Of a DNA stretch of 64,000 nt, positions 7,506 to 58,337 are shown in pieces. Each line of letters opens with the position of its first letter. Position 1 is the stretch's first letter. This DNA is from Blasia pusilla (lineage: Eukaryota): contig CM114271.1 of NCBI GenBank assembly GCA_050084515.1, positions 6,386,001-6,450,000 of the forward strand, written 5' to 3'. The notes under the pieces were generated by a model. The model saw nothing but the letters and a program-made list of their open reading frames with translations. It was not told the DNA's origin and did not search any database. A program made the position numbers and the translations under genes.

Positions 7506-12761
<5,256 letters not shown>

Positions 12762-14976: not shown

Positions 14977-15058
14977 GTCGCTTTGGCCGAGTGGTTAAGG
15001 CGTGTGCCTGCTAAGTACATGGGGTCTCCCCGCGAGAGTTCGAATCTCTCAGGCGACG
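14977..15058 (+). tRNA. tRNA-Ser(GCT): tRNA-Ser, anticodon GCT (82 nt, long variable arm)
   Basis: Acceptor stem GTCGCTT/AGGCGAC with discriminator G. A-box TGGCCGAGTGG, anticodon loop CT-GCT-AA, variable arm GGGG-TCT-CCCC, T-arm GAGAG-TTCGAAT-CTCTC. Confidence 0.97.
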
Positions 15059-16251
15059 ACTCGATGGCGGCTATATGATACACTTGGTTGGATTGTGTAT
15101 TCCAAACCTAAAAGTCTTGTCCGCTCTTCTGTAAGAGAGAGGAATTAGAGGCTCTACTTATTGCCTGCAAGCGCTCGCGAATGGGGACGGGAGGTTTTGG
15201 CTTTAGGGTTGGTTGGTTGGTTAGCAGTATGTTCTGGAAGGCACGATTCAGAAGTTCCAACCGATTCTCGTATCGCTCGCGTTTTCTACGAGGATCCGGT
15301 TCTTTGTCCGGTGATATGGTGGCGAGCAACTTCTGCGAGACGTGAAAATCGATGGCAAACGTCTGCCATCGACTTTAGTTGCAGCTTCCGTCAGAAAGTA
15401 GTGAACGGACTCCTTTGATATCTTCCAATCGAGTGCGGCGTTTACCAATCGCAGTGAGAAGTAGATTCGAATGGCTGGGTTTTGGCATTACATCCGGAAC
15501 AATCTTAAGGTTCGCTGACTCCTGTCGCTGCTACTTTTCCAGTCTTGCATAATCGGCCAACATACGAACTGCAGAGAAGTGCTGAATCTCGGATTTCAGG
15601 TCCATGCGGCCCTCAGATGTGTGTGACGGTGGGCGTCATCCTCACCTTCGCGTGGTTGCGGACAAGCTTAGACCTGCAGATCCAAAATCCCCACTCCTTG
15701 GTTTCTGTCCCGCCTCCAGTGAGTCCTACAGGTACCTTCTACGGGTCGGTGGCCGATTGCAGATCAGGTAGTGAGGTGAGTAGGAAAGGCTTGGGTCGGA
15801 CTTGTGGGATGCATAGTAGTTGGTTACGATCGGCGGTGGAGACGTCTTTTCGTGGAGAGGTCGATGGTCATCGCTCTACTAATCATTTCGATGAAGGTCT
15901 TCGGCGGCTCCTCAACATGCAATACAATGGCAGTGAAACTCGTTAATTTTGATTCGGAGTTGATGAAGTTGAAATGAAGTTGATGAGACGATTTCCGGAG
16001 AAGGGAAACTCGGAGGAGGTCCAGGATTTTAAACCTGCGTTTGATTTCGTTTGAAAAAGTTGTGCGAGTAAGTGCTGAGGACTATTCGGGATGTGGCGAG
16101 CTTCCATGATGAAAATCGTGAACGGAGGATGAGCACACCGGTGTGACCAGCTGTAAGGCTCCATGAATGCCAAATGGGGTTTAGCCAACGGGGTGAGAAC
16201 TCCCCAAGTCTATTATATAGTTTTCACCATGGATGCTTCACTAGAGCAAAT

Positions 16252-17142
16252 TCACCAATACTGCCGCTGCCCAGTGAGCAAGACCCAGCAATTGACGGTC
16301 ATTCTACAGATGGCAAGTGCCCAAATACCGTCCAGAAACTGCCCTCTCCTACCTATGACCCAAAGAGAAGCAAGACCTGCAAAAGCACTACTCCTCCACT
16401 CCTTCCCATTGTAAACGGCAAACGCAGCATTACATGCGATCCACGCGAGCCAGTTCCAGTCGCTGAACGACACTTCTGTATAGCTCGTGTGTGAATTCCC
16501 AGTCAGGTGCTGCACTAGAGCTCGGTACAGCCACGAGTAGTAGAATAGCCCATCCTGTACCGGAGTTGTGAAAGCCCCCGCGATTCTCATCGCATCCAAC
16601 AACCACCCACATGCTCTGGACTGATAGTCATCTCCTGGGCTCCAACAGATCCTCATGTCGCCATGACTATTCTCGTTGAGGTGTACCGTCACCAGTCCAC
16701 TCAGAGCACCCACAATCAGTCCCTCCATTGTTCCCAATCCTGGAGTGAAGTTCTCGTAGTTCAGTTCAGGCAGATGGGGGTAAACGAGGGCAATGCACGT
16801 CGCGGCAAGTCCACAATGAACGACATGAATCTTGTAGCGGGCCCTTCTCATCGGAGGAGATTGCATAAGGTTGAAAGAGAGTCGCTCATGCTCATCTGCT
16901 GAACTGCCCGGGAATCGCCTCCCATTCGTTGCAGCTGCAGTTTCCATAAACTCCTGGTGGGCCTCTCGTCTGGCGATGAAAAGGGATCGGTAGTGGATCA
17001 CATTGGCGGACACCGTGGCTAGCAACCACGGCAGGATGCGGAGAAGTGTGCCCACTATTTGCACCATTCGCATGTGTAGAACGATGTCGCAGCGACTCGG
17101 CAGCAGAGGGAAGGCCACGGGCAGCCACAGATTGACATCCAG
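16252..17142 (-). CDS. Multi-pass membrane protein resembling CAAX prenyl protease-related (CPBP/type II CAAX, TIGR03008-like) proteins with degenerate catalytic motifs; main coding exon
   Basis: Uninterrupted ORF of ~296 codons with several hydrophobic segments. LRILPW..., ALVYPHLPEL, MRIAGAFTTPVQDGLFYYSWLYRAL and terminal WVLLTGQRQYW parallel my recalled family pattern (ARVLPF..., WR.YPEL, RLLGA.LVVPVMEELFWRSFL.R, WVL.TG.WQFW). First in-frame ATGs are at 17073 and 17067. Confidence 0.72.
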   Translation of the reverse strand: MDVNLWLPVAFPLLPSRCDIVLHMRMVQIVGTLLRILPWLLATVSANVIHYRSLFIARREAHQEFMETAAATNGRRFPGSSADEHERLSFNLMQSPPMRRARYKIHVVHCGLAATCIALVYPHLPELNYENFTPGLGTMEGLIVGALSGLVTVHLNENSHGDMRICWSPGDDYQSRACGWLLDAMRIAGAFTTPVQDGLFYYSWLYRALVQHLTGNSHTSYTEVSFSDWNWLAWIACNAAFAVYNGKEWRSSAFAGLASLWVIGRRGQFLDGIWALAICRMTVNCWVLLTGQRQYW

Positions 17143-17272
17143 CTACCCACAGAGGCCAAACACCTGCTTCAATGCCCGTCTTCGCCACCGATCCAGCTCG
17201 CCAGCGCTGTGATCATGGCGATGGGCCGTGACATCTTTCTGGAGATGGTCGGCTGAATGCACACCGACGCAC

Positions 17273-18009
17273 GGGCACTACGCGTTGTTGTGGTATTTGC
17301 TCCCAGCGTAGAGAGAGAAATCGACGAAGGGCTGCAAATCGAAACATTCTGGTGAAGTAGAAGTCCTCGCCCCCTCGCCCCAGAGTCACACTTCCTCTGC
17401 GATGCCTGACCTACCCCCTTCGCGTCCTGCGATTCCAGGAGCAGAGGAGCTAAATCCTAAATCCTAAATCCACCCATGGGCCGCGCGCTCCTTCAGCAAC
17501 AGCTGAGAATTACCCGCATCACTCTGATGTACTTCACGTGCAGCTGAAGAAAGAAGCAGAGCCACAGAATGGGCTCCATCTCAGGGACGCTGAAGCGGGA
17601 GGAGCAGTAACCGCTCACTCTCCGCTTGTGCAGATCTTCTAAACTCCGAATCTCGCCCCACTTTCCGTGACGCCGATCTACAGCCACGAAATCCACAGGA
17701 AGAAGCGATCAGTGGCACGACGGGAAACGGCTGAGGCCGGAAACTCTCTCACGCTCACATGCGGAAGCGGGTCAGAGCGAGAAAGCCATCATCAAATTGC
17801 GGATGAAGATGCACCAAAAGCATTCCGGTGAGAACAGGAGCAGAATAGTCATAAAGGCCATCGATCACTCTCCCTCCCTCTTCTCCAACGGCTCCTGCTC
17901 CTGCTGCTACCGCAGAAATCCTCGCGAGCTCACTCACAATCCTCGCCTCTGCAGCGGATAAGACTCCATAAGCTCGAGTGGAGTGCTCGCACCACCACCT
18001 TCTTCCCAT
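17273..18009 (-). CDS. Candidate 5' exons of the CPBP-like gene: 17969-17938 (or 18009-17759), 17677-17619, 17543-17514, 17331-17273
   Basis: A chain of GT-AG sites (ATT|GTGAGT or CAT|GTGAGC, CTGTAG|, AGA|GTGAGC, TTCAG|, CGG|GTAATT, TTGCAG|, CCC|GTGCGT, GGGTAG|) stays in phase into the 17142 exon. No homology support for the encoded N-terminus. Confidence 0.4.
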
Positions 18010-18182
18010 TCGTTCGAGATGGGGTTTTTTTTTCCTAAAAGGGTACTTTTAGGGCATTAATTAATTATAAATAAATAAATATCTTTATCTTTTATAGGCC
18101 AATCAATGACAAACACCTATCCTTAGAGTGGTCTCTTATTGCCACATTGAGGTATACTGTTAGCTAAAGGATCAAGAGAGGA

Positions 18183-18328
18183 CTAGTATTCATCCCTTGG
18201 AGTGAAGGGATTAATGATGCTCCACACAAATTAAATTATTAATTTTTTCATAGCATTGGAAAATATTTTCTTTCTGCCATCCATACTTATGTTTGCAAAT
18301 GAAGAAGGCACTCCCCAATAATAATAGA
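18183..18328 (-). mobile_element. Non-autonomous mini-Helitron (family also at 21040-21204 and 34232-34391; 5' fragment at ~14082-14154)
   Basis: On the minus strand it starts TCTATTATTATTGGGGAGTGCCTTCTTCATTTGCAAAC and ends CTAG|T. A 7-bp hairpin ATCCCTT/AAGGGAT lies just inside the 3' end. Confidence 0.65.
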
Positions 18329-19563
18329 AATTGGGTGGGTTAGGGAAACTGTCTTTTTGACACTCGTCACAGCTCTTATAACATGTGCACTTGACGTTGA
18401 TACTTGTCAAAGCTCTTATGATGTAGACACATGTTTAAGGAGTACTTAAATTAAAAGGACCAAAGACTTCACGGTTATCAAATTTTTTTTCCCTCACATG
18501 TGCATAGTACATGCATCATCTAGTGTCTTATGAGTTGGTTGGCCATATCTAACTTATCTAGAGCAAACATTTACATCTTTTTATAAGCTTTCACTAGTTC
18601 TAATAATGGAAGAAATTTTTTTCCTCGTAGAGTTTCACTTTCTTCTCTTAAAATTTGATTAGAGATATATTTCTCCCAATTCATTTGGGGCTCATAATTG
18701 GGGTCAGGGGTAATGAATTGAAGCATTCCACATTAAAGTGTGGAGTGTATTATACAACCGATTACTTAGTTGCTGACAGAGGAAGCGGAGAGAAGCCTCT
18801 ACTTTTGGTAGGACTACTTTAAGGATCGCCTTATAAGTTTTGTAGTGTCTAATACAATGATCAACGTCATAGTATTCAATTTGTTGTACAATCCAAAAAT
18901 ATCACGATTTTTTTCTGTACATCACATGGGTATCTTTTTTACTTATACTCTTGGAAAATTTGTTACTTACTAGCCCCTAAGGATAAAATGACATGGAGAA
19001 TTCAAAATTTTACTTTTTTCCCCTATGGCCCTAGCAAGAAGCACAGTAGCCCCATGGGCCCTATCAAGCAAAAGATGTGCTTGAAGTGTGAGGAGTTTTG
19101 GTCATGTGGATGCCTCTAGGATGATACAAGGCAAGCTATCTGCTTGGCAACAAAAAATTTACGCAAGTCTTCATGGAGGATAAAAAAATGATATTGGATG
19201 ATGTCATTTTTTTCTTTCATTGAATTGGATAATAATCTTGGGTCCTTTCTAAGATGTGTTGAAATATGTTAAGCTAAGTTGTTAAACTTCACGAAAAGTG
19301 CAATGTGCACGGTTACGTATTTACTATAAAACTCATGTTCCATCCAACATCACATTACTAATCTATACCCTTTGCAAAAAAGAAGAAGAATGTTACATGT
19401 ACATCTTTTGAATTTTTTTGTTTGGAAAAAAAAAACTAGTGTAGAGCACATGCCATGTGAGGAGTTAATAGTTATGTCTCCTATTACGGTATTTTCTTGC
19501 TTTCTTTGTCAGGAAGTTTTTTCTTACCTACTCAAGTACCACGAGTCAATCAAGGAGGATAAA

Positions 19564-19618
19564 TTTATAAATATAATCTATCTATAAATGCTATTATTAG
19601 ATAGATTATATTTATAAA
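19564..19618. repeat. Perfect 21-bp inverted repeat with 13-nt loop
   Basis: TTTATAAATATAATCTATCTA ... TAGATAGATTATATTTATAAA. Confidence 0.9.
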
Positions 19619-20311
19619 AGTGGAATGAGGAGTTTCTTTCTAAAATGTTTCTTTCTTTGTGAACTATTTTATATTATAATTGGAAGAGGGTGCTGCAACA
19701 ATGGATAGAAAAAAATACGAAAAAGATGTCAACGCAACCACATATCATTACACTTATCTTAAGAGTCTTAGCTTCCTTGGCCTAAATTACATGAGTATGA
19801 TATGCCAAAGGCAATGGAGAAAATTCAATGCCTAATTGGATATTTAATTGGTAATGATCGCATGGTTCCTTGATTTTGGATCGAATAATGACATCTCCAA
19901 CTAATTATATATGGTTGAAAGAAACTTGTTCCTTGCAAAATAGTTAAGAGATATGCATATACTTATTCCTATATGATATGTTAGGAGATTATTTACTTTA
20001 TTGATTTGACTGATAAGAGCATTATGTCATTGGAAAATATGAGTCATTTGTAATGTTCGCTAAAGTTTGCAATTTCTAAAATAAAGCATTCTCTAGATAT
20101 ATGAGATATGAGTCAAAAATCCTATATTTGTTTTTCACATCTTATAAATCTAATGGCATAGAAGTATTTTACAATGCAAAGTTAGAAGGAGGTCAAAATT
20201 GGATTTTGTGGTCGTTTATTCGGTAAGGGGTTGCATCAATTTGCTATAGGAACTCGTCAAATATAGGAAATGAATTATTTTTTACTGACCTAACACACAA
20301 CCAATTACACA

Positions 20312-20313
<2 letters not shown>

Positions 20314-20355
<42 letters not shown>
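20314..20355. repeat. (GA)n microsatellite
   Basis: About 21 uninterrupted GA units. Confidence 0.98.
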
Positions 20356-20358
<3 letters not shown>

Positions 20359-21039
20359 TGAATGTACCAATGATTTCTACTCTAACTAAATAGTTATTGT
20401 ATTAACATCCCTTTTAAAGCTCATATTTGATAGAGCTTAAAATATATAAAATTCATTCATTTCTAACCTTTGTTTTGGGTAATATACATACAAAAATATT
20501 AAAATCTCAAACTTTTCCTAAAAGAAAACTTCTATGAAGGCATCACCAATGTGATCTTTCATATTCACACACTTAAAATGTATCTTTCTTGCTAACACTT
20601 TTTGATGAAACAAGACTGAGTAATAATGCATCTTTATGTGTTTAATCCTAACAATAAATATAGAATTATTAGCCAGCTTCATGCCACCTATAGATTGGAG
20701 AATCGGCTGGCCAAAATCTACATAAAACTACGCCAAGTTCATGCGCTTAATTTGAAACTCCTCTTTGCTCCCCCTTCATGGAAATGCCATGATTATGAGT
20801 TTATTTCTTAACTTGAGATTGACATATACACTCCCAAAATTAAATAAATGACATGTCGTAGAGAAAATACCCGCTCAATTTGGATGTGTCAAGCCATAAA
20901 GATCAAAATCTAATGTCCATGTGAAGTCAAGTCCAAACCTAGTACATATATTATATGCTTTATTATTTTGAAGTTTTTTCTCTCACTACTACATTTAGCG
21001 GCACAAACATGATTGTGGGGATTCTCTAGAAGGTGCAAA

Positions 21040-21204
21040 TCTATGTTATTATGGGAGAACGCCTTCTTGATTTGCAAACACCTCTCTGTTTGACACGTGG
21101 CAATTGGGAGCAAGAAAATGTTTCACATGCTACAGACAGCAAGGAAAAAGTCTGAATTTGTCTGTAACATCATTAATCCCTTCCCTTCACGAGCTATACA
21201 CTAA
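21040..21204 (+). mobile_element. Non-autonomous mini-Helitron copy
   Basis: A|TCTATGTTATTATGGGAGAACGCCTTCTTGATTTGCAAACACC...GCAAGAAAATGTTTC...CTAA is colinear with the reverse complement of 34232-34391. Confidence 0.65.
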
Positions 21205-23005
21205 CAAAAACTCTTCAAACACTTTTTTTATTTCCTGTGCATCGCACGGACACCTTACTAGTAACTACAAAATAGCGCACATGAATTTGCATCTCTCATG
21301 CAATCTCAAACCCCAATTTTTGGACATCTACGCAATACCAAAATTCATTTAATTATTTACAGTTGTCGAACCTTTTGAAACTTGTAAATGGGGTTTTTTG
21401 GGTCATTCTCTCTCTCTTGGAATGTTTTGAATTTTGTGGGGCTATTGAAACTTTCAATGCAAGCTTGCAAACTTATATTTATAGAGGAAATAACACGTTG
21501 GATATCACACAAAATTAAAATCTTGTGTGATATCCAAAAATGGAGAAATATTTGTAAAGGTGTGAAATATCTTTTACAAGGGTGGCTTGCTTGTAGATCT
21601 CCATAGATATCCTTTATCATCTATATTACTATGCATATGGCGGACTACATACTAGCTACATCCTTGGGTACCACTAAATTGAAGACTAGCACATACTATC
21701 TATTAGTGATCTTCAATCTAAAGTGCAACAACGTTGATGGGATGACCAAGATTGACTTCACCGTTGTAGTAGTGAAAAGCTACTCACACACCACTCTTAT
21801 GAATATCCTCTCAATGTTTGGTCTCTGAGACCCATTTTTTATCCTTGTCTTTGTAGGCCGGATTTATATTTGACTCCTTGTATTGCTTGTTCGTTTATGA
21901 AAGAAACTCACATATTGAGATGCAACATCTTGTGCTATACAAGGTTCGCTCTTCGGATTTGTGGGCCAGTTGGTTGATGGATTGGATCTGCTCCTTTATA
22001 ATTGTTACCCCATTGGGTTTGGGTATGCTATATTCTAGGATTAAAATATTAGTAAGTGTTCTAAAAATATTCCATAAGCATCTTCAAAGATTGAATACCA
22101 TAATAACATAGAACGAAGAGGGTTAATAGGACATACATGATTATAGTCTCATATGCAAAAGATTCCAAGAAAACCCTAGAAGGAAAAGTGTTTCATTGAC
22201 TCCACATGAGAAAGATGACTCTAAATAGCATCAACTCTCCTTTTATACTCTTAAGAAGAGCCTAAAGAGTCCTGCTGCTACATTTGACAAGATATATAAA
22301 ATCATGAACCATTCATTTGGTTATGAGGGTCACAAAAATGAGGGCGGGCCCATCTACTCCTTCACGTTGGGGCACGTGTCCACTACCTTGATAGGTGCAA
22401 TTGTGTTGATGATGGGCTCCACCACATACCCAACAAATAGCTCCAGGCACATGCTGCTGACCTGCATATGATGGCATGGGTCCCTATGGCACGTGCTCAC
22501 GATAACCTCCTTGACATGAGCTCACGGTGACACACTTCTCTCTCAAAATCCACATTGCTACAATGGTGGCGCATGCAGGCGTGATTGCTCTTGCGTGTGA
22601 CTCATGGCTGCTACACTCTTCTCAGCCATGTTATGTTCAATGCACTTCCCCATCTAAAAAACATCTCTTAAGGTAGGTGAGTTACGCATTAGGAGTACCG
22701 CATCCCTCACCCATTTTCGCAGGTCTCGTTCCAACATACCATACCATGCCTAAATAGCTTGGGCCTTTGTCCCCACTTGAGTGACACTAATCAAACGTCG
22801 CATGCGAGTAAATGCCTCCCGCAAACTTTCTCATGTGTGCCTATGGAAGTCGTGGATGCTTTGCAACTTCTCAATCCGTACCCCTTGGTAGGTCCTCCTC
22901 AACTTTGCAAAGAACTCAACCACAGGGTTGAACCTAAGACGAACCCGACTGGAGGATGCAACTGCCCTAATCTGACTCACGCTCACAGACTCTTCCTAGT
23001 GCCAG

Positions 23006-24962: not shown

Positions 24963-27700
24963 TGTCGCGACCCTCATAACCAAACAAGCGCCAAGCGGAA
25001 CATCCGAACTCTAGCGATCTCACGCTAGGATGGTTTGCGCTTTGGGAGTTAAGGAAACACAAGGGCGAGACGTGAGCGAGGCGAGCATTTCGAGTGTTTC
25101 GTGTAATCTGGTCGTGACCAAGAAATCGGAACCAAACACGGTACTCAGACTTGAGAGAATTCAAGTCTTGGAAGAGACGCGGCCAAGGGGTGAAAACCGG
25201 ACTTGAGACGTTGGCAGCGGTTGGGAATTTCCGACTGTACTTTTGACCATAACTTTGAGTCCCAATAAGCGTTTGGGACAAGTAAGGTAGTGTTGGAAAG
25301 CTTCTGTCAAGTCAGTTCCAACGCACCTAAAACCTTTGCAAACGCTTGCGCGAAAGTTGAGATATGGGCCAAATCCGACTATAAGAGGAGTCGGGTTGAG
25401 GGCCAAAAAGAGGGGCCCGGGTGGTCTTTCCCAAAGGTAGGGGGACCCCGGAGTTTCCCAGAAGTACTAGTAAGAGGGAAGGTCTCCAAGAGTGCTTGGG
25501 ACTCGAACTCCACTTTGGGCGCCGCGGGGCGACCCAAGGGCACGAAACGGATCGTGAGTTTGGTGTTGGGCTTCAAAACCCAAACCAAGTTCAATAGAGG
25601 GATTTCGGAGATCCCTATTGGATTCCAATTTGCGACTCATATGATTGAGTCTCGGTTAGGGTCTCATGCATGGTCCGTTGGACAGTTGGGACCGCTAGGC
25701 ACGCAAACGCCGTTTCAGGTGCCTGGACTAACTAGAAAGTATGTCCCAAGTCTCGGAAGACTTGCCTGTGTTGGGAACCTAGGAATGAGGGAAGGTTGAG
25801 CTTGATGAGATGCCGGGTTGAGGACTTGGTGGGTTGGAAGGCCGCTTGACCCAAAGCCAGACTAATGTGAGTGCGTTTGGGTGGAGGTTGGCGATGAGAG
25901 CGTGTCCTAGTGAACGTACGCTTCCGCAACACTAAGATTGACATTCAAGGAGAGTAGGCGCACGACATGTGGTATCAGAGCTAATCCTTGGTGAGTGAGA
26001 ACTTGGGGTTGTGGGAGTAACCGGACGCTTGGGGAAAACCCGAGGTAGCGTTGAGACTTAGACGCTCGAGGAGGGATGCAAGAAATGAGGAGGAGATATG
26101 AGTGTGGCGGCTTGAAGATAGCAAGCGAGGTAGATGAACCACGGAAACGCCGAGCCAAGCGACGCAAACCATAGGACGAACCGATGCCAGATCGGGAGCC
26201 GTTGGAGGAGACGCCGACTCTCGAGATGCCGAATATTAGACATGAGGGTGTCCCAAACGTAGACCCTCTTGCGGAGCCAATGGCCCCAAACTCAAGTGAG
26301 CCGGCCTTCTACGTCCAGATGGTGGATTATATGAAGATGATGACCAAACAAGTCCTCATGCAAAACAAGCGGATTGCAGAGCTTGAGTCGGACAGAGCTC
26401 CAAGTTCTAGCAAAAAGCTCTGCAAGACAAACCTGCCCACGCCATTCACCAGAGTCGCAAGGTGAAAGATTTCCTTATGGAGATGGAATATTACTTCGAG
26501 CTGCAGAGGGCAACATAACAAGATAAGGTGGCAATGGCGGTCACCTTTCTAAAGGATCATGCGCTTCAGTGGTGGACAGCGCAACGGGAAGAATATCTAG
26601 CCGACCTTCACCTCTGAGTTGGGAGGAGTTCAAGACGCTGATTGGTGACCGATTCACCCCGGAGTTCCAAGAGATTCGCAATAGAGTAGAGCTTGTGCGA
26701 CTACGGCAGACTGGGCCCTTAAGCGCATATGTGAGGGAGTTCAGCGCAAAGTTGAACTCCATTCATAAGATGGATGAGGCATCGTAGATAGAGATCTTCA
26801 TCGGTGGACTCAAACCGAGCGTAGAGAAGGCCCTGTACAGAATGCCTGAGTTTCCTAACACCTGCGTGGAGCTTTTGAGGTTGGCGGAGCGGATTGGGGA
26901 CGATGAGGTCCAAGCACCGAAGCCCTTGGAGACAAAAACTTTTTCCAAAGGTTTGAAAAACAAAGGGGCACCCAAGAGGGTCTAGATTGGGGTTGAGCGG
27001 GACCAAGGAGAGTCTCTCAACCCAACAAAAAAGTGACAAGAACGCCTTGCTAAGCCGAAGGGAGCACAACATCCGAAGTCAAGAAACGGCAAGGTGGTAT
27101 GCTACAACTGTGGCTAACATGGGCACATGGCGAAAGGATGCTCCAAACCGAAGGTTAGTAATGGGAGTATGATTGTGTTAGCTGCTAAACACTTGTCGGC
27201 GGGAGGTTTGGAGACCTCCCTTCAAGTCATCAAGAGGACGCCCAACTTGGTGTATCTAAGATCCAAGATTGCTGATCGCGATGTGCTGTTGCTCGTGGAT
27301 ATAGGTGCTTTGCACTCCTTCCTAAGCCCGAGAATCGTGAAGGAGTTGGGTGTGTCAACCTCTAAGGCGGAAGAGCCCATTCGAGTAGGCTTTGCCGGAG
27401 GCAAGTCTCAACGAACTTCCGAGTTGGTATTGGGTTTGACGATAAGATGTGGAGTATTCGAGTTGAAGGAGAATTTCACGGTGTGCGAGATGGATGGCAT
27501 CGACGGAGTCTTGGGGAACACATTCCTGGATGCGTATGAGGTGGAGCTAAGGCGAAGGCCATCGAGGTTGAGCGTCTTAGTGAAAAGCAAACGATAATCT
27601 TAGTAAATTGGCGACCCTGCACGCATGGAATCAAGCCCTTAGGGGTTAATATGATGCCTTAGAAAGGGGTCACATCAACTAGGTACTTCCTAATGGGGAC
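24963..27700 (+). mobile_element. 3'-truncated Ty3/gypsy element: 5' LTR 24963-25967, PBS 25970-25981, decayed gag and protease
   Basis: LTR ends TGTCGCG...GCACGACA followed by PBS TGGTATCAGAGC (tRNA-iMet). Gag motifs are FLKDHALQWW and WEEFKTLIGDRF...LRQTGPLSAYVREF, with a CYNCG*HGHMAKGC knuckle and protease LVDIGALHSF. No RT or 3' LTR follows. Confidence 0.9.
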
Positions 27701-43100: not shown

Positions 43101-46100
43101 TCAGAAATTGGGTTTATGACATGAGGGCCCAGGCTGGCTTAAGGAACTCAGAGAATAGAGCACCTCCTCACACTCTTGGTACTCGTTGAGTAGATATCGA
43201 AGGAGCCAAGACCAAACAAGTTGTTTTGCTGTTTTGAAGTTTCAAAATGGCATTTCACACAGTTCCATGGGTCTCTCCTTTGGAAGCGGCTAGAGGAATG
43301 AGACGTCCCTACCCATTTTCTCGTTGCAATCGAAGTGCTGCATGTCCAAGGTCACCACCGGGAATCAGATAAAATATCCTCAAACGTGGAGGATAAACAA
43401 GTCTTTTGGACTATACATCTATGATCTCGAAGAACTATTTCATGCGGTCAAACGCGAAGACCCAAATTGGCGCTCTTGATGATCCCATTGCTGCCGTAGT
43501 TTGCATATGGCCTTGGCCTTGCTAGCGAGAACAGAATCTGGTCACCAGCTCTACCTCCGTAAATTCTGGGGGTTAGGCACTCCGTGTTTATTCAGAGGCA
43601 CGGGCCTGCTTCTGCTGTTGAGATCGTGCGAGAATACATGTCAAGCGTGTAGTTCAATCCCAAAAACCAGTGGCAGTCGAATGGCATTCGAAGCAAAGAT
43701 AATGCAGGGACGAGGTTTCTTCACCTCTTCAAATCCAGCTGGGAGAAGGGAAAGGTGGCGCACACCTTACCAACTCCAACTCTTCAATGCTGCAGTCGAC
43801 ACTCCATGGCTCTGAACTTTGGGATCCCAGCTCTCGCAAATGATTTAAGATCTTGGATAGGCCACCCTTTATGTGCTAATGCCTCCGCATCAGGAAAAAC
43901 CACCTCACTTGGCGTTGTCTTCTCAGGGAGGTCACACTGGAGATACATTGTCTCAAAGGATTCATCAATCTCTTCTCTCGAACACCTAGATGATATCAAC
44001 GATGAGAAACAGGATGCAAGGAAGTGGAAAAAGATGAAAATGTACCATGCCCTTCATGAAAGTTGAGAGATTAGCTGAACAAATGACTAACCTCTCAGAC
44101 CCTCTGACTACAAGCAGTATCGACCACTTGTCAGATGTGGTTTGTAAGGCTTAAGAGTAAGCTTTCACTCATGAAAAGGGAAGCCAGACTCGGTAGACAC
44201 TTCAATTTGGAAGACTCCTTTCCAAGTAAAGCTTCCATGAGAGAATTAGAGGGTACTTCCCCAATGTTTTTCAGGATGCTCCTGTGAGTCCTTTCGTGTC
44301 TTGTAAGAACCAGGTTCAATTTAGTGAACTTTTATATCAATTTTTGGGTGCTAGAGTGGAACTGTTAGCTTCGCAATAGAACAATTCACTTTTATTTCTG
44401 TCAATGTCGAAGTCTTGTATGATCTGGCCCACCTAATTATTGCAAATATCCTAGGAACTTTCAATTCTGATGGCCAATGACCCAGTTGATTCTTTCCTTC
44501 TTCCTTTCTAAAGAACGTCCTTGGATCACTCAACTCCATGCGGATAGCTAAGTCAGTGGTTTTTTCTCATGAAGAAGACTCGTGCTACCTAAACTCACTC
44601 AAAATTCGTTCCTCTGACGACTGGGCCTTAATTTTTCTGATCTCTGCAGGCACAACTTTGAACTACTTCCTGGATGGGCGCATTAACCGCGCTGAGATTT
44701 TATTCCCAGGGGTTGGATGCTTTCTGGTAGCAGTTGTCTTAGGCTCCTTTCTCCACAGATCCAATTCTGCAGATAACATAGAAAAGCTCAAGCTGGCCGA
44801 GAAAGAAGGCACAGGTCAGGACGTGGAGGTCCAAGGGTCGCGAGCAAACCTTGAGAGGTGAGTAAATGTTTTCAATCTTTTTAATCTTTGATTCATGGGT
44901 TCATTCTTTGAAAATCATGGGGTAAGATTAATGGGTTTATTCTTCGTAAAGGCCACCAAAGGAACGGGACCATGATCGTAGGAAACGATCGGGATGAACC
45001 CTCCTCTTGTTGAATCTGTACTGCCACAACTTGGTTATTTCGATATCAAGCTCCCATGGAGAAGTGCGTGTGCGAAGCTTTTGCGTTTTTCCTGGCACGT
45101 GCTGGTGGTATTCCCTCGATCATACACACGACAAAGGCCATTTTATGTACACGATGGGTAATGCCACATTAGTGGATCTGAGAGAATTGTATCATATGTG
45201 TTCTCAAGGTAGAAGAGGTCAGAAACTGAGCTCACATTTCACTCATAATGTTTTGATTTTTTCTCTCTGTGAATCAGGTCCACTGCACAACGTGGAGAAC
45301 TTCCACCAGGTAGGTCGTTTCAAGATGCACGGACTTTCAATCGTACATCTTCGTGGGGAAGTAAATTGCATGCCCAACTTCTGAACTCACCAGACTAGGT
45401 GCTGCATGCTGCCTACGCAGGGTTGGCAGGTGTGAAAGCTGTTGCAACGCCTGATACTAAAGCCGCGACAGGCAGTGCTGCTTTCTTGCTGGAGTTGGAA
45501 GAGAAGAGAGCTGTGAAGGTTTGTGAGAGATTCAAGAGAGCTGTGTACTTTGATGGTTGATGATTCAGCAAGTGTTGCATAGTTGGAAGCTTTGAGTGCT
45601 AATGAGTGAATGTTTGAATGATATTCATCTGCATGTCTACGATCTAAAAAACTCCCTCCCTTCTCATTTTGAAACTTGGTAAACCCCCTTCCCAGCCCCT
45701 AAATCCCTTCCTCATCTCTCCTTTCATTCGAACCCGCCTGTCTTCTCCTTCATTTCAGAAAAAGATATAAGATTCTCATTCGGGAAAAGAATCCTCTCAA
45801 ATCCCACCTCCTTGTTTGAAAAGTAAATCCCCTCTCTTTTAACCCCCTCCTATGTAAAATCATTTCACACATCATCCGTTCAAAATTTTGTAGGATATCT
45901 ACATCTGCACTTTTCAATAATAATAATAATAGTAGTAGTGATATGAAGGATGTCCACTCGCAGGCTGGCAGTGCTAGTTACTGGTTTGGACTGTCGATCG
46001 TGTTCTTCTCAGGCTTGTGCTTTTCACTCTTCACTCCTGCGTTCAACTTGGCATCCAATGATCAGTGGAAGTTGCTGAAGCCTGGAGTGCCTCACCTGGT

Positions 46101-47101
46101 GGTGTACACGGCGTTCTTCTACTTTTCAATTGCAGCCTTCGTCTTTGGATTCGGCATCAACCTCTTGTTTCTATACCGTCCCATGATAGGTCTACCGAGC
46201 TCATCCTTCTCAGCTTACTTGTCAGATTGGAAGGGTCGCCCTTGGGCTCTCCTGGCAGGTGTACTCTGTGGTCTTGGCAATGGCTTTCAATTCATGGGTG
46301 GTCAAGCAGCTGGTTACGCTGCAGCAGATGCAGTGCAGGTATCATTATGCCCAGATCGGTTCATTGTTTCTCCAACATGTGAAGTCCTTGTGTCTATGTG
46401 AGAGTCCATGGGAGCCGATCATTATCCACCACCCGATTGGTCATTGTTTCTTCAACATGTGTGGGCCTTTTGTCTCTGTGAGATTCTATAGAAAGTAGAA
46501 GCTGATCAGTAACCACCACCAGATTGGTCATTACTTCTTCAACATGTGAGGCCTTTCTGTCTATGCCAGATTTCTGTAGAAGCTGATCAGTGTCCACCAT
46601 CAGATAGGATTATTTCTTAAACATGTGAGGGCCTCCTGGCTACGTGAGATTCTATAGAAGCTGATTATTATCCACCACCAAATTGGCCATTTTTTCTTCA
46701 ACTTTTAAAGGGCTGCTCTCTACTCGAGTTTCTACAGAACCTGATCAGTATCCATCCCCAAATTATCATTGCTCCTTCAACGTGTCCTCGAGGGCCTTCT
46801 GTCTAGGTGGGATTCCATAGAAGCTGATCAGTACACACCCCCAAATCGGTCACTGTTTGATAAACATGCGAAGGCCTACTGTCTACTTGAGATTCTACAG
46901 AGGCTGATAAGAACCCACCCACCTGACTGTTGCTGCTTGCAGGCCCTGCCCCTGGTGAGCACGTTCTGGGGAATCTTGATATTTGGAGAATACCACCGAT
47001 CATCTCGAAAAACCTACGTACTTCTGGCAACGATGTTGCTCATGTTCGTAGCTGCAGTAGCTGTCTTAATGAGCTCGTCTGGACACAGAAAATCATCGTA
47101 A
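40156..47101 (+). CDS. UPS: Ureide permease (UPS family). Exons 40156-40392, 42428-42566, 44650-44857, 45278-45309, 45421-45518, 45964-46338, 46943-47101
   Basis: MYLVQDKGGAVALMLASLTFLGTWPA...HTYLDYSITN, GNLACQYGWPFVGLSVT, GTTLNYFLDGRINRAEILFPGV, AAFLLELEEKRAVK, FNLASNDQW, QFMGGQAAGYAAADAVQALPLVSTFWGILIFGEY...SSGHRK match plant UPS proteins. Intron phases are consistent. Confidence 0.96.
40600..41920 (-). mobile_element. Decayed non-LTR (LINE, RTE-like) reverse transcriptase in UPS intron 1, antisense
   Basis: RT-like fragments in order: WKGA...YQEI (41696-41917), FFLDLKKAHNIV...NTNGKVPVHG (40973-41173), SFRINQ*VIQG, LFLNMLLNP and SLPFADD (40713-40946). Confidence 0.7.
42950..44540 (-). mobile_element. 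Decayed L1-type LINE 3' fragment in UPS intron 2, antisense
   Basis: zf-RVT-like 'EETSSLHYLCFECHSTATGFW' at ~43660-43725, preceded by 'LAHKGWPIQD'. Boundaries are approximate. Confidence 0.55.
46345..46925. repeat. About 7 diverged copies of an ~80-bp tandem repeat filling the last UPS intron
   Basis: The unit CCAGATTGGTCATTGTTTCTTCAACATGTGAGG.CCTT.TGTCTA.GTGAGATTCTATAGAAGCTGATCAGTATCCACCA recurs at ~46351, 46432, 46519, 46600, 46678, 46758 and 46841. Confidence 0.93.
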
Positions 47102-56500: not shown

Positions 56501-58337
56501 AAATGCTTGGTTGGATGAAGCCTTTCCGCAACATCTCCTCCACTTGGGCTTTGCATTCTTCTAATTCTCTTGGAGTTAAGCGGTAAGGAACCTTACATGG
56601 TGATGTGCTTCTTGGAAGGATCTCAATCTTGTGGTCTACACTCCGTTTGGATGGTAACCCTGATGGTAAATCATTTGGGAATACATCTTTGTATTCTTCT
56701 AATATTTCTCTCAACTCGTCTAGTATCTTTGAATAATTTTTCAAACCACAAACATCTCTTATTAAACCTAGGAAACATACATCTTGATGTTTGATGGCGG
56801 TTTTTCCTATTGCATATAAGGGTAGGGTTCTAAGACGTGATCTGACTCTATCTGTGTAAAGCTTCCACTCTCGGGTCTTCACAATCTTTTTTCTCCAATC
56901 TACCTTTGGATTATAGTGTTCCATCCAAGGCATTCCCAAGATAACATCATAACGTGCTAACCTAATGACCTTCATCTCCAACTCTTCCAGATACTTTCCT
57001 ATCCTCAACTCTACCCTTTGAGGAAGCTTCTCAATCTTTTCTGTTTGCCCGTTTGGTAATCCTACCTCTTCTTTTTGATCCCTCTCTAAAGCTAAGCCCA
57101 ATTTCATAGTTATGGCTCTTGAAAGGAAGTTTTCTGTTGCCCCAAGATCAATCAACACTCTAACTTCGGATCCTTCTACTTCCCCATCTATAACAATGAG
57201 ACGTGTTTCTCCTCTCTTCAAACCATTTACCTCCACATGTTTTTGTCGACCCTCACCTTTCCTCCTTTTGTTAGAACCAGTATATTCGCGAGGCACGATT
57301 ATTGGTGGTTGGCATTTCCCTGAGGTCCGCCTTCTTTGTCATCTTCTTGTATATGTCCTCCTTCAAGATGATTAAGGGGGAGACGATATGGCCTATTTTT
57401 TAGCCTACAAAGATGATAATTCATGGCTATATGACCATATTTACCACACTCAAAACATTGGCGTGTATCTCTTTGGACTTCGAATTCTCTCCCTCCTCTA
57501 GGAACCCCGACCCTGTCGGTTTGAGGAACAATCCCTTGTATGTTAGGATTCCGATCTCTCTCCATTGGCAACCTTCCATTATACCTTCGCGGTGCATAAT
57601 CATCTCGTGCTCAAAGGTTATCCAACTCCATGGATGTGGGTCCGTAGTGGTTGTTCATGGAAGCAACCACCTCTCCTCCTCCTTCGTACACATTTGCCAT
57701 ACGTTGGGCACATGTGATTGCTTCATTGATATCTTTTGGATTGTCTCGAATCACCTCTTGACGCGCCTTCCTCTTCAACCTCTCTTAAACAGATTGAGAG
57801 CTTTTGGCCCACTCATGTCACGGATTTGTATCTGCAAGTCACGAAACTCTTCGATGTATTCCTCCATAGTGCCTTTTTGCTCCAGTCGCCATAATTTTAT
57901 TCTATCAGTGAGGATTGGATCCACAGCTTGGAAATTTTGCAGCAACCCTTGCTTCATTCCGCTCCATGTGATTTGTTGAGTTGTTTCAATCAAGGATCTC
58001 TCCCATCCTTGATACCATGTCAATGCTCGATCGATTAACCAAGATCTTACAAACATCCCTGCAATATGATCATCAATGTTGAAAAGGGATAAATGGATTT
58101 CCATCCGAGTGATCCAACCCTCTAATACACCTATGGCTCGACTTCTTTTGTACGGTTCTACCTTGCATGTCTTTATCATTTTCAATATTAATGATGCTTG
58201 AGCATTCATCTCTGTCACTCTTTGTGCTGCTTGGGCCTCCAATGCTCATGCCCTTAAGGTTTCGTCACTCTTCCCAGAAGTCACGACACTCGTGGTTTTC
58301 GTCTCCATCCCACCTATCGGAAGAACACACACACACA

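What the first reader, a model, noticed from the sequence alone, without database searches (positions are those of the whole stretch)
16252..17142. Bacterial-type CAAX-protease-related (CPBP) gene in a plant genome, apparently a catalytically dead pseudo-protease
Seen: an intact ~290-codon membrane-protein exon between a tRNA and TE DNA, with no stops or frameshifts although nearby TEs are decayed. Established: CPBP/type II CAAX proteases use EExxxR, FxxxH and HxxxN motifs, and the TIGR03008 subfamily is bacterial, associated with exosortase/PEP-CTERM systems, and ends in ...WVL.TG.WQFW. Inference from an alignment by eye: the protein follows that subfamily end to end, but EELFWR becomes DGLFYY, FGLEH becomes FAVYN and HAVTN becomes LAICR. 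It also carries an ~50-aa hydrophilic insertion after the first TM segment. This suggests a horizontally acquired domain kept as a non-catalytic membrane scaffold, receptor or binding protein. It is the best candidate for undescribed biology in the window.
Basis: partly seen in the sequence, partly recalled or inferred. Interest (0 to 1): 0.72.

Follow-up and report, generated by a model that had tools for sequence, protein, structure and literature searches.

The report
Inactive bacterial-type membrane protease in liverwort
An expressed, intron-free liverwort gene encodes a membrane protein descended from a bacterial-type intramembrane protease family, but it has lost every catalytic residue while staying strongly conserved, so it most likely works as a non-cutting binding or scaffold protein.

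Summary
A stop-free frame at 16252-17142 (minus strand) encodes a 271-aa membrane protein, probably starting at the ATG at 17067. RNA-seq reads of the same species label cover about 16170-17930 with no splice joints.

It matches NCBIfam TIGR03008, the PEP-CTERM/exosortase-associated CPBP protease, at E 2e-11, below the family cut-off. A profile-profile comparison with bacterial members gives 99.9% probability and runs to the last residue. The AlphaFold model (pLDDT 93.6) best matches SpdC and Rce1.

All six canonical motif residues are kept in 118 of 119 bacterial relatives. The window keeps none: D/G/Y, N and L/R.

The gene is not a one-off. Orthologues occur in Spirogloea, Sphagnum, Selaginella, ferns, Ginkgo and liverworts, and none was seen in angiosperms. 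Catalytic residues are lost stepwise: intact in algal-type members, motif-2 His lost in all land plants, more lost in liverworts, and all lost in Marchantiopsida.

Bacterial ancestry by ancient transfer is favoured by the trees, but the AU test does not prove it (p 0.42). A non-catalytic scaffold or binding role is inferred, not shown.

I rate it a new variant of a known kind, of moderate interest.

The parts
16252..17067 (-). Coding sequence: 271 codons plus a TGA stop at 16252-16254. The likely start is the ATG at 17065-17067; an in-frame ATG two codons upstream at 17071-17073 is also possible.
   Evidence: ORF and translation. The start was chosen by alignment to 273-274-aa Marchantia and Riccia proteins.
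16170..17930 (-). Approximate transcribed region. It is single-exon, with a 3' UTR of about 80 nt and a 5' leader of about 860 nt.
   Evidence: Raw RNA-seq reads of three runs have depth about 6-40 across these bins and near 0 beyond 18042. First mates lie mainly on the + strand. No joints were reported.
17068..17930 (-). Long 5' leader containing upstream ATGs.
   Evidence: Read depth. There are 14 ATGs in 863 nt, the last being the in-frame ATG at 17073. Twelve open short uORFs of 1-44 codons, and the ATG at 17138 runs out of frame into the coding sequence.
16849..17067 (-). Streptophyte-specific N-terminal part (residues 1-73): a hydrophobic helix carrying invariant N22/H25/Y26, a hydrophilic linker and a short amphipathic helix.
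   Evidence: Hydropathy and model helices 2-46 and 57-67. It is not aligned to bacterial profiles. N22/H25/Y26 are present in 18 of 18 streptophyte rows.
16255..16848 (-). CPBP core (residues 74-271), homologous to bacterial TIGR03008-type proteins up to the last residue.
   Evidence: hhalign probability 99.9%, E 1.7e-34, residues 74-271 against bacterial 33-232. TIGR03008 E 2.1e-11.
16537..16557 (-). Remnant of motif 1 (EExxxR): residues 171-177, QDGLFYY. The first Glu is Asp, the second Glu is Gly and the Arg is Tyr.
   Evidence: All 119 bacterial rows have E, E and R at these positions.
16408..16422 (-). Remnant of motif 2 (FxxxH): residues 216-220, FAVYN. The His is Asn.
   Evidence: Of 119 bacterial rows, 118 have His.
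16303..16317 (-). Remnant of motif 3 (HxxxN): residues 251-255, LAICR. The His is Leu and the Asn is Arg.
   Evidence: All 119 bacterial rows have H and N.

Best explanation
This is a real, expressed, single-exon nuclear gene of a complex-thalloid (Marchantiopsida-like) liverwort. It encodes a multi-pass membrane protein of about 271 aa with the CPBP (Rce1/SpdC) fold.

Shown:
- It belongs to a streptophyte-specific family whose nearest relatives are bacterial exosortase/PEP-CTERM-associated CPBP proteases. These are the standalone TIGR03008 form and the exosortase E fusions.
- The family carries an extra N-terminal helix-plus-linker of about 73 aa with invariant N22/H25/Y26.
- The canonical catalytic set was lost stepwise. 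Algal-type members keep it. All land-plant members have lost the motif-2 His. Liverworts also changed the catalytic Glu to Asp, lost the buried Glu and changed the oxyanion-hole Asn to Arg. Marchantiopsida also lost the last His. The window copy additionally changed the motif-1 His (the ancestral Arg position) to Tyr.
- Sequence conservation, the intact frame, tree branch lengths and transcription all indicate continued constraint.

Inferred:
- The liverwort protein no longer cleaves peptides.
- It uses the retained intramembrane cavity and the streptophyte-specific polar residues to bind a partner. The partner could be a transmembrane or C-terminal segment of another membrane protein, or a lipid-linked ligand. 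The protein would then act as a non-catalytic scaffold or regulator, as shown for the CPBP proteins SpdC, Abx1/CflP and plant BCM1/2.
- The liverwort-wide pair D172/R255 may form a salt bridge that fills the former active site.
- The N-terminus looks like a signal anchor rather than a plastid transit peptide, which suggests an endomembrane or plasma-membrane location.
For: Homology:
- TIGR03008 matches at E 2.1e-11, 44.1 bits, profile positions 38-222 of 222.
- All 9 of 9 family members match TIGR03008, best E 4.4e-18.
- hhalign of 18 streptophyte rows against 23 bacterial rows gives probability 99.9%, E 1.7e-34, to the last residue.
- A profile search of 1.84 billion representatives gave 370 hits at E<=1e-3. 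Beyond the plant family the hits are about 230-aa standalone forms and 510-565-aa proteins matched at the C-terminus. Sources name these 'exosortase E/protease (VPEID-CTERM system)' or 'CAAX prenyl protease-like'.
- The Verrucomicrobiota relatives L017 and L006 score 146.8 and 144.3 bits on TIGR03008. Each lies two genes downstream of an XrtA/PEP-CTERM ATPase gene (TIGR03015).

Fold:
- The AF2 model has pLDDT 93.6 and pTM 0.88.
- Of 48,161 chains, the two best are SpdC 6u0o_A (Z 8.4, rmsd 3.7, 134 aligned) and Rce1 4cad_C (Z 7.2, rmsd 5.0, 171 aligned). The next is Z 5.1.

Loss of catalytic residues:
- 118 of 119 bacterial rows keep all six motif residues. The window has D, G, Y, N, L, R at those positions.
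- The gradient across 18 streptophyte rows is tabulated.
- Residue roles come from passages of PMC13692083. The first motif-1 Glu plus the motif-2 His form the dyad. The motif-3 His and Asn form the oxyanion hole. The second Glu and the Arg form a buried salt bridge.

Constraint and expression:
- Identity to Marchantia, Riccia and Calypogeia orthologues is 57-64%, with no frame disruption.
- The liverwort clade is supported at 100/98, and its root-to-tip lengths are similar to those of other land plants.
- RNA-seq depth is about 6-40 over the gene in 3 runs of one study, on the strand of the ORF, with no introns.
- Of the fixed differences between reads and window, 1 lies in the 813-nt CDS and is synonymous (GGC>GGT). 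Seven lie in the roughly 860-nt leader.

Non-catalytic CPBP precedents (passages read):
- SpdC (10.1101/2020.05.21.109470).
- Abx1 and CflP (PMC13692083).
- BCM1/2 (PMC7083845).
Against: - No experiment bears on activity, partner or location.
- The window protein alone does not reach Pfam PF02517. It is below the TIGR03008 cut-off of 81.05 bits.
- The structural Z scores (8.4 and 7.2) lie in the range the tool warns can be generic for helical bundles. Foldseek found nothing at E<=1e-3.
- Asp at the catalytic Glu position and the many conserved polar residues (H25, E132, N133, R139, D147, E223) could support some other chemistry.
- Non-liverwort land plants have kept Glu, His and Asn without the motif-2 His. 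This argues that these residues still matter there, so 'dead' may not hold for the whole family.
- dN/dS could not be computed because no orthologous nucleotide sequences were available.
- The RNA runs come from one study.
Confidence: 0.6

Rival explanations
1. The protein is still an enzyme with a rebuilt active site. D172 would act with streptophyte-specific residues such as H25 on the added N-terminal helix, and the protein would carry out proteolysis or another membrane reaction.
For: - D172 is present in all 6 liverwort rows and N22/H25/Y26 in 18 of 18 streptophyte rows.
- Many conserved polar residues sit in or near membrane helices.
- CPBP-fold proteins take part in non-protease chemistry, for example LnsB in lipoprotein N-acylation (PMC7387801; search listing and abstract only).
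Against: - Both oxyanion-hole residues and the dyad His are gone.
- H25 is also present in algal members that keep the full canonical site, so it did not arise as a replacement.
- No alternative His lies in the three motif helices of the window protein (sequence).
Confidence: 0.12
2. The family is not a horizontal acquisition. It would be an old eukaryotic or plastid-derived CPBP lineage that survives only in streptophytes and merely resembles the exosortase-associated bacterial clade.
For: - The AU test does not reject a tree with all 52 bacterial ingroup rows together and the streptophytes outside. It gave p 0.417 against the careful tree and p 0.721 against the quick tree.
- The streptophyte stem is long, at 1.56-1.65 changes per column.
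- A cluster on the bacterial side carries a Gloeobacterales cyanobacterium name.
Against: - The careful ML tree nests the streptophyte clade within a 99/98-supported group of standalone bacterial TIGR03008-type proteins. Three of these rows are named Verrucomicrobiota (P0019, L017, L006), with P0019 as sister at 94/83.
- No other eukaryotic protein appeared among the rows listed by the profile searches.
- The best NCBIfam model for 9 of 9 members is TIGR03008, not a general CPBP model.
- The gene is intron-free here.
Confidence: 0.27
3. The window copy is a decaying relic or pseudogene that is transcribed by chance.
For: - The window copy is the most degenerate at motif 1 (Q171, G173, Y177).
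- It has a somewhat longer end branch (0.30) than Riccia (0.22).
- Its leader is full of upstream ATGs.
Against: - The frame is 296 codons without a stop.
- Identity to orthologues is 57-64% across liverwort classes.
- The only fixed difference from the RNA reads within the CDS is synonymous, against 7 in the leader.
- AF2 confidence is 93.6.
- Transcription is strand-specific.
Confidence: 0.03
4. The locus is bacterial contamination of the assembly.
For: The best non-plant matches are bacterial.
Against: - The window also carries plant-type gene pieces: a CDC48-like AAA exon, a ureide permease exon and Ty3/gypsy fragments.
- The closest proteins are liverwort proteins at 57-64% identity, against about 20% for bacteria.
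- RNA-seq of the same species label covers the gene.
Confidence: 0.01

Closest known systems
TIGR03008 'pepcterm_CAAX' (CAAX prenyl protease-related protein of PEP-CTERM/exosortase systems) and the CPBP domain of exosortase E/protease fusions (TIGR04162)
   Same: It is the best-matching curated family for all 9 members tested. The core is collinear to the very last residue, with the same terminal ..TG....W ending. P169, R182, W224 and W271 are shared.
   Different: - The score is below the family cut-off, 44.1 against 81.05 bits.
- All catalytic motif residues are replaced.
- There is an extra N-terminal part of about 73 aa.
- The host is a eukaryote, and no exosortase context could be tested here. 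The bacterial relatives lie two genes downstream of the PEP-CTERM ATPase gene.
SpdC/LyrA of Staphylococcus aureus (PDB 6U0O)
   Same: It is the best structural match (Z 8.4). It is a CPBP-fold membrane protein whose known roles are non-catalytic scaffolding of a partner, SagB (passages).
   Different: Sequence identity in the structural alignment is about 10%. SpdC still carries putative catalytic residues that are dispensable, whereas here they are absent. The partner here is unknown.
Rce1 (type II CAAX prenyl protease; M. maripaludis structure 4CAD)
   Same: It is the second-best structural match (Z 7.2, 171 residues aligned). It belongs to the same superfamily, with the same three-motif architecture (passages).
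   Different: Rce1 is an active glutamic intramembrane protease. The window protein lacks the Glu/His dyad and the His/Asn oxyanion hole. No Pfam PF02517 hit was found for the window protein.
Abx1 and CflP (Group B Streptococcus) and plant BCM1/BCM2
   Same: These are CPBP or CAAX-type membrane proteins that act as protein-interaction scaffolds independently of catalysis. CflP naturally lacks the catalytic Glu. BCMs show no CAAX protease activity in yeast complementation.
   Different: No detectable close sequence relationship appeared in any search here. BCMs are chloroplast proteins of angiosperms, whereas this family was not seen in angiosperms and has no obvious transit peptide, which is an inference.
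Myxosortase MrtX/MrtJ (NF040593, NF040914)
   Same: These are CPBP intramembrane proteases that process C-terminal sorting signals (passages). Two of 9 family members give weak hits to these models.
   Different: They are active enzymes with the full motif set, they are bacterial, and the match is much weaker than to TIGR03008.

Membership tests
CPBP superfamily (Pfam PF02517, Rce1-like glutamic intramembrane proteases) | Significant profile match to the CPBP domain | tested here: met
   The window protein alone gives no PF02517 hit. However, 4 of 9 orthologues hit PF02517, best E 1.3e-6. TIGR03008 matches at E 2.1e-11. hhalign to bacterial CPBP members gives probability 99.9%, E 1.7e-34. Homology is met; the Pfam threshold is not reached by this copy.
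CPBP superfamily (Pfam PF02517, Rce1-like glutamic intramembrane proteases) | CPBP helical-bundle fold | tested here: met
   The AF2 model has pLDDT 93.6. The top two of 48,161 chains are the two CPBP structures, SpdC (Z 8.4) and Rce1 (Z 7.2), with the next at Z 5.1. The Z values are modest for helical bundles, and Foldseek gave nothing at E<=1e-3.
CPBP superfamily (Pfam PF02517, Rce1-like glutamic intramembrane proteases) | Motif 1, EExxxR (catalytic Glu and buried Glu-Arg salt bridge) | tested here: not met
   The window has D172, G173 and Y177. All 119 bacterial rows have E, E and R.
CPBP superfamily (Pfam PF02517, Rce1-like glutamic intramembrane proteases) | Motif 2, FxxxH (dyad His) | tested here: not met
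   The window has F216 and N220. Of 119 bacterial rows, 118 have His. All 15 land-plant-type rows lack His at this position.
CPBP superfamily (Pfam PF02517, Rce1-like glutamic intramembrane proteases) | Motif 3, HxxxN/D (oxyanion hole) | tested here: not met
   The window has L251 and R255. All 119 bacterial rows have H and N.
TIGR03008 (pepcterm_CAAX equivalog) | Score at or above the curated cut-off (81.05 bits) | tested here: not met
   The window scores 44.1 bits. The true bacterial members L017 and L006 score 146.8 and 144.3.
TIGR03008 (pepcterm_CAAX equivalog) | Collinear core ending in ..TGxWxFW at the extreme C-terminus | tested here: met
   The alignment runs to the last residue. The window ends ..TGQRQYW. 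The terminal Trp is present in 115 of 119 bacterial rows.
TIGR03008 (pepcterm_CAAX equivalog) | Genomic association with exosortase/PEP-CTERM system genes | not testable with these tools
   No whole genome is held for the window, and the host is a eukaryote. Within the 64-kb window, the 13 ORFs of 150 aa or more that were scanned gave only AAA/CDC48, ureide permease and retroelement domains. The bacterial relatives lie two genes downstream of TIGR03015.
Non-catalytic CPBP scaffolds (SpdC, Abx1/CflP, BCM type) | Function independent of catalytic residues; stable binding of a membrane partner | not testable with these tools
   Only the absence of catalytic residues is shown. No partner is known and no complex job was sent.

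The most novel reading that the evidence does not exclude
[quoted passage not shown] It gained an extra N-terminal helix. At the origin of land plants it was converted from an enzyme into a pseudo-protease that has been kept for more than 400 million years. Liverworts went furthest, replacing the active site with a D172-R255 charge pair. The protein would be an undescribed membrane receptor or scaffold of non-flowering plants, lost in angiosperms, with the still-intact algal copies as the active ancestral state.
Probability: 0.3. Interest if true: 0.65.

Novelty: new variant of a known kind. Interest (0 to 1): 0.5.

Why it matters
Pseudo-proteases of the CPBP fold have recently been recognised as membrane scaffolds and regulators in bacteria (SpdC, Abx1, CflP) and in chloroplasts (BCM1/2). 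This family would add a plant lineage whose nearest relatives are bacterial exosortase-system proteases.

It offers a natural series running from an apparently intact enzyme (algal-type members) to a fully stripped active site (Marchantiopsida). That makes the enzyme-to-pseudoenzyme transition directly testable in a tractable model, because Marchantia polymorpha has an orthologue, MPTK1_1g07130.

The family was not seen in angiosperms, which would explain why it has not been studied. It may also be a further case of ancient bacterial gene gain near the origin of land plants, although this is not proven here.

No paper in the searched library mentions the Marchantia gene or this connection. Supplementary gene lists of plant HGT surveys were not searched and could contain it.

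Tried and rejected
- Pfam scan of the window protein gave no CPBP hit, only a sub-threshold VQ motif.
- A profile search of PDB sequences gave only spurious WD-repeat designs (Tako8, E 0.17).
- The first AF2 run used a 7-sequence alignment and was unusable (pLDDT 47.1). The 136-row alignment fixed this.
- Foldseek against PDB found nothing at E<=1e-3. SpdC came second, with probability 0.66.
- No whole genome is held for the window, so paralogues, exosortase genes and synteny could not be examined.
- The look-up of sequencing runs listed no RNA holder from the index. The evidence for transcription comes only from laying raw runs X8-X10. The X2 contig spans 15000-17969 and may be DNA, so it was not used.
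- The earlier-findings index returned nothing in 3 look-ups.
- P0018, P0020 and P0062 (880-2541 aa, 6-14 repeated stretches) are repetitive bacterial surface proteins that match a short low-complexity part of the profile. They were discarded as spurious.
- Nesting within bacteria appeared in the quick and careful trees. It failed the AU test (p 0.721; p 0.417) and is therefore not claimed as shown.
- The first attempt to scan genome contigs with the 23-row alignment had no conserved stretch. A 6-row alignment worked. Its ranking is biased towards relatives of the Verrucomicrobiales query.
- dN/dS was not possible because no orthologous nucleotide sequences were available.
- The D172-R255 and H25 positions in the model could not be measured, because coordinates are not exposed.
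- Contamination and pseudogene readings were considered and rejected (see rival explanations).
- No complex prediction was sent, because no candidate partner exists.
Full report
**1. What is in the sequence**

On the minus strand a frame runs without a stop from 17142 to 16252, which is 296 codons. It is the second-longest open frame in the window. Table-11 ORF listing starts it at a GTG at 17118, giving 288 aa. Alignment with annotated 273-274-aa liverwort proteins places the start at the ATG at 17067 (MVQIVG...), giving 271 aa. A second in-frame ATG lies two codons upstream.

The window is plant nuclear DNA. It also holds a CDC48-type AAA ATPase exon (9619-10431), a ureide permease exon (45820-46398) and fragmented Ty3/gypsy retroelement ORFs (27118-27594 and 54124-57338). 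tRNA-Ser(GCU) lies at 14977-15058. No whole genome is held for the window.

**2. Transcription**

Three raw RNA-seq runs carrying the same species label, all from one study, were laid on 15000-18500. They gave 238, 173 and 280 reads.

- Mean depth is about 6-40 across bins 16170-17924.
- Depth is 0-4 across 15117-16169 and about 0 beyond 18042.
- First mates lie overwhelmingly on the + strand. In the usual stranded libraries this means the RNA comes from the minus strand, the strand of the ORF.
- No joints were reported, so the transcript is unspliced across the gene.

The transcript is therefore about 1.75 kb, with a short 3' UTR and a leader of about 860 nt. The leader contains 14 ATGs, the last being the in-frame ATG at 17073; 12 open short upstream ORFs, and the one at 17138 runs out of frame into the coding sequence.

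The reads differ from the window at fixed positions. One is in the 813-nt CDS (16660, GGC>GGT, Gly, synonymous). Seven are in the leader (17133, 17254, 17414, 17426, 17486, 17642, 17670). Two low-frequency non-synonymous variants were also seen:

- K222T: 3 of 28 reads with the first mate on + (0 of 2 with it on -) in X9.
- V128L: 4 of 24 reads with the first mate on + (0 of 1 with it on -) in X10.

**3. Family assignment**

- Pfam gives no CPBP hit for the window protein.
- NCBIfam TIGR03008 (pepcterm_CAAX) matches at E 2.1e-11 and 44.1 bits, below the 81.05 cut-off. The match covers profile positions 38-222 of 222.
- All 9 of 9 orthologues match TIGR03008, best E 4.4e-18. Two of 9 also touch TIGR04162 (exosortase E/protease) and the myxosortase models. 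Four of 9 reach PF02517.
- A profile of 18 streptophyte sequences against a profile of 23 bacterial standalone proteins gives probability 99.9%, E 1.7e-34 and 185 aligned columns. Window residues 74-271 align to bacterial residues 33-232, up to the last residue.
- With a 136-row alignment, AlphaFold2 gives pLDDT 93.6 and pTM 0.88. A 7-row alignment had given only 47.1.
- An exhaustive structural comparison with 48,161 PDB representatives ranks the two CPBP structures first. SpdC 6u0o_A has Z 8.4, rmsd 3.7 and 134 aligned. Rce1 4cad_C has Z 7.2, rmsd 5.0 and 171 aligned. The next hit has Z 5.1.
- Foldseek alone found nothing at E<=1e-3, and the Z values are modest for helical bundles. The fold argument therefore rests on the combination with the profile evidence.

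**4. Catalytic residues**

According to passages of PMC13692083, the residue roles are:

- The CPBP motifs are EExxxR, FxxxH and HxxxN/D.
- The first Glu and the motif-2 His form the catalytic dyad.
- The motif-3 His and Asn form the oxyanion hole.
- The second Glu and the Arg form a buried salt bridge found in both catalytic and non-catalytic members.

In the 136-row alignment, 118 of 119 bacterial rows carry all six residues. The window carries D172, G173, Y177, N220, L251 and R255, and retains only F216. HMMER, MAFFT and hhalign agree on the register. The three motif helices of the window protein contain no alternative His (sequence).

**5. The family in plants**

Sequence searches found orthologues only in streptophytes:

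- Marchantia paleacea, 64% identity
- Riccia fluitans and R. sorocarpa
- M. polymorpha (MPTK1_1g07130)
- Calypogeia fissa
- two Sphagnum species
- Ginkgo biloba, Selaginella moellendorffii, Ceratopteris richardii and three copies in Spirogloea muscicola
- two Adiantum species
- several unnamed records

No angiosperm, hornwort or Physcomitrium-type protein appeared in any of the four searches. This is absence of hits, not proof of absence.

The motif table for 18 rows shows a gradient.

| Group | Rows | Motif state |
|---|---|---|
| Algal-type (Spirogloea, P0013, P0014) | 3 | Keep E, E, H, H, N; P0013 also keeps the Arg |
| Moss, lycophyte, fern, Ginkgo type | 9 | Keep E, E, H251 and N255 (Ser in one); Asn at the dyad His, Lys in Ginkgo |
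| Jungermanniopsida type | 2, plus P0006 | D, A/S, N, H, R |
| Marchantiopsida (including the window) | 4 | D, C/G, N, L/M, R |

The motif-1 Arg position is His in 15 of the 18 rows, Arg in P0013, Asn in P0014 and Tyr in the window.

All 18 rows share N22, H25 and Y26 on an N-terminal helix that has no aligned bacterial counterpart. In the gene tree the streptophyte clade has 100/100 support and the liverworts 100/98. The window is sister to Riccia plus Marchantia (100/92). The order of branches broadly follows the species phylogeny. Root-to-tip lengths of liverworts are similar to those of other land plants.

**6. Origin**

Outside the plant family, the profile searches return bacterial proteins. 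There were 370 hits at E<=1e-3 in 1.84 billion representatives. These are mostly 510-565-aa proteins matched at their C-terminus, together with about 230-aa standalone proteins.

Of the 120 rows listed, 6 are streptophyte-type. The other 114 carry PF02517, most of them with the exosortase domain PF09721. Where a source gives a name it is 'exosortase E/protease (VPEID-CTERM system)' or 'CAAX prenyl protease-like', apart from one 'hypothetical protein'.

A scan of bacterial genomes with a 6-row alignment found 370 relatives. Among the 80 kept, 72 titles name Verrucomicrobiota-type taxa. The ranking is biased by the Verrucomicrobiales query. In two of these loci the gene scores 146.8 and 144.3 bits on TIGR03008 and lies two genes downstream of an XrtA/PEP-CTERM system ATPase gene. 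Fusions of EpsH-like and CAAX-protease-like domains were already noted in 2006 (PMC1569441, passages).

Tree 1 had 87 rows.

- Rows: 14 streptophyte, all 38 standalone rows that passed a coverage filter, and 35 of 106 fused rows.
- Left out: P0005, P0008 and P0011 as partial or mis-modelled, and P0159, P0160, P0161 and P0169 as near-duplicates.
- Result: a monophyletic streptophyte clade on a long stem (1.58).

Tree 2 had 71 rows.

- Rows: 14 streptophyte, 34 standalone including L017 and L006, 18 fused and 5 outgroups.
- Left out: six near-identical standalone rows.
- Outgroups: other CPBP paralogues of three Verrucomicrobiota genomes, one of them only 26% filled.
- Result: the streptophytes sit inside a 99/98-supported group with standalone bacterial TIGR03008-type proteins, of which P0019, L017 and L006 are named Verrucomicrobiota. 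They are sister to the Verrucomicrobiales protein P0019 (94/83).

The AU test, however, does not reject a tree that keeps all 52 bacterial ingroup rows together. It gave p 0.721 against the quick tree, where the constrained tree was better by 15.18 log-likelihood units. It gave p 0.417 against the careful tree, where the constrained tree was 3.66 units worse.

With long branches on both the streptophyte stem and the outgroups, nesting is favoured but not demonstrated. I put an ancient bacterial-to-streptophyte transfer at roughly 0.65-0.7 and an old vertical or plastid origin at roughly 0.27.

**7. How it most likely works**

Shown: CPBP homology and fold, absence of the whole catalytic set, conservation, and transcription.

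The following points are inferred.

- The liverwort protein does not cleave peptides. It retains the intramembrane cavity as a binding site and acts as a scaffold or regulator of another membrane protein, or of a lipid-linked ligand.
- This is what is documented for other CPBP proteins. SpdC scaffolds the hydrolase SagB, and its putative catalytic residues are dispensable (10.1101/2020.05.21.109470, passages). Abx1 and CflP regulate the kinase CovS independently of catalytic residues (PMC13692083, passages). Plant BCM1/2 are annotated as CAAX endopeptidases but act as scaffolds without CAAX protease activity (PMC7083845, passages).
- In liverworts the changes E172D and N255R co-occur: 6 of 6 liverwort rows, against 0 of 12 others. 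This is a single phylogenetic event. Both positions belong to one active site in Rce1, so a new salt bridge filling that site is plausible but unmeasured.
- The buried Glu-Arg pair of motif 1, said to be kept even in non-catalytic CPBPs, is also gone here (G173, Y177). This is unusual.
- The N-terminus is a hydrophobic helix followed by basic residues and has no Ser/Thr-rich presequence. I read it as a signal anchor rather than a plastid transit peptide.

**8. Known or new**

Non-catalytic CPBP proteins and ancient bacterial gene gains in streptophytes are both known kinds of thing; the latter rests on my recollection of the plant HGT literature.

The following appear unreported in the library searched:

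- the specific link of a streptophyte family to the exosortase-associated CPBP clade
- the added N-terminal module
- the graded loss of the active site across land-plant phylogeny

The supporting searches were:

- The Marchantia gene id gave 0 papers.
- Combinations of CAAX or CPBP with HGT, land plants, Arabidopsis, Zygnematophyceae or exosortase gave only unrelated or bacterial papers.

Supplementary tables of plant HGT surveys were not examined and may list the family. Database names for the orthologues are 'hypothetical protein' or an automatic 'CAAX prenyl protease 2/Lysostaphin resistance protein A-like domain-containing protein'.

**9. Verdict**

The horizontal origin is favoured but unproven, and the scaffold role is inferred. 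I rate it a new variant of a known kind, with moderate interest (0.5).

Noticed in passing
window 17068-17930 (minus strand): The transcript has an unusually long leader of about 860 nt. It contains 14 ATGs, the last being the in-frame ATG at 17073; 12 open short uORFs of 1-44 codons, and the one at 17138 runs out of frame into the coding sequence. Either translation is strongly regulated or the true mRNA start lies closer to the CDS.
   Followed up: partly
window 14977-15058 (+): tRNA-Ser(GCU) was found by ARAGORN and Rfam. Reads and contigs show variant letters at 15026 and 15039 and loose ends at 15055-15060. This is consistent with a multi-copy tRNA family.
   Followed up: no
window 9619-10431 (+): An open frame with AAA ATPase (E 9.5e-49) and CDC48 domain 2 matches. 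It is probably an exon of a CDC48-type gene.
   Followed up: no
window 45820-46398 (+): An open frame matching ureide permease at E 8.4e-64, profile positions 194-315 of 359. It is an exon of a plant ureide permease gene.
   Followed up: no
window 54124-57338 (-) and 27118-27594 (+): Ty3/gypsy-type retroelement remains. Integrase/SH3, RNase H, reverse transcriptase and aspartyl protease lie in four separate open frames. A lone aspartyl-protease fragment lies at 27118-27594. The elements are broken into pieces.
   Followed up: no
window 16403 and 16686: Two low-frequency non-synonymous variants appear in the RNA reads. K222T is seen in 3 of 28 reads with the first mate on + (0 of 2 with it on -) in X9; Thr is the residue found in Calypogeia at this position. 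V128L is seen in 4 of 24 reads with the first mate on + (0 of 1 with it on -) in X10.
   Followed up: partly
window 18042-18500: Transcription stops abruptly. The tool reports a skipped repeat at 18053-18092, and G+C drops to 0.33 over 18001-22000. This may be the edge of a repeat or TE upstream of the gene.
   Followed up: no
proteins P0018, P0020, P0062: Large repetitive bacterial surface proteins (880-2541 aa) match profile positions of about 187-254 in 6-14 tandem stretches. This is a compositional false positive of the profile search.
   Followed up: yes
proteins P0010 and P0157 (Selaginella), P0008 (Sphagnum magellanicum), P0005 (Riccia sorocarpa): Some database gene models of the family look mis-predicted. 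Selaginella has a C-terminal extension replacing the conserved ending. S. magellanicum has an internal deletion of about 55 aa. R. sorocarpa has a divergent N-terminus.
   Followed up: no
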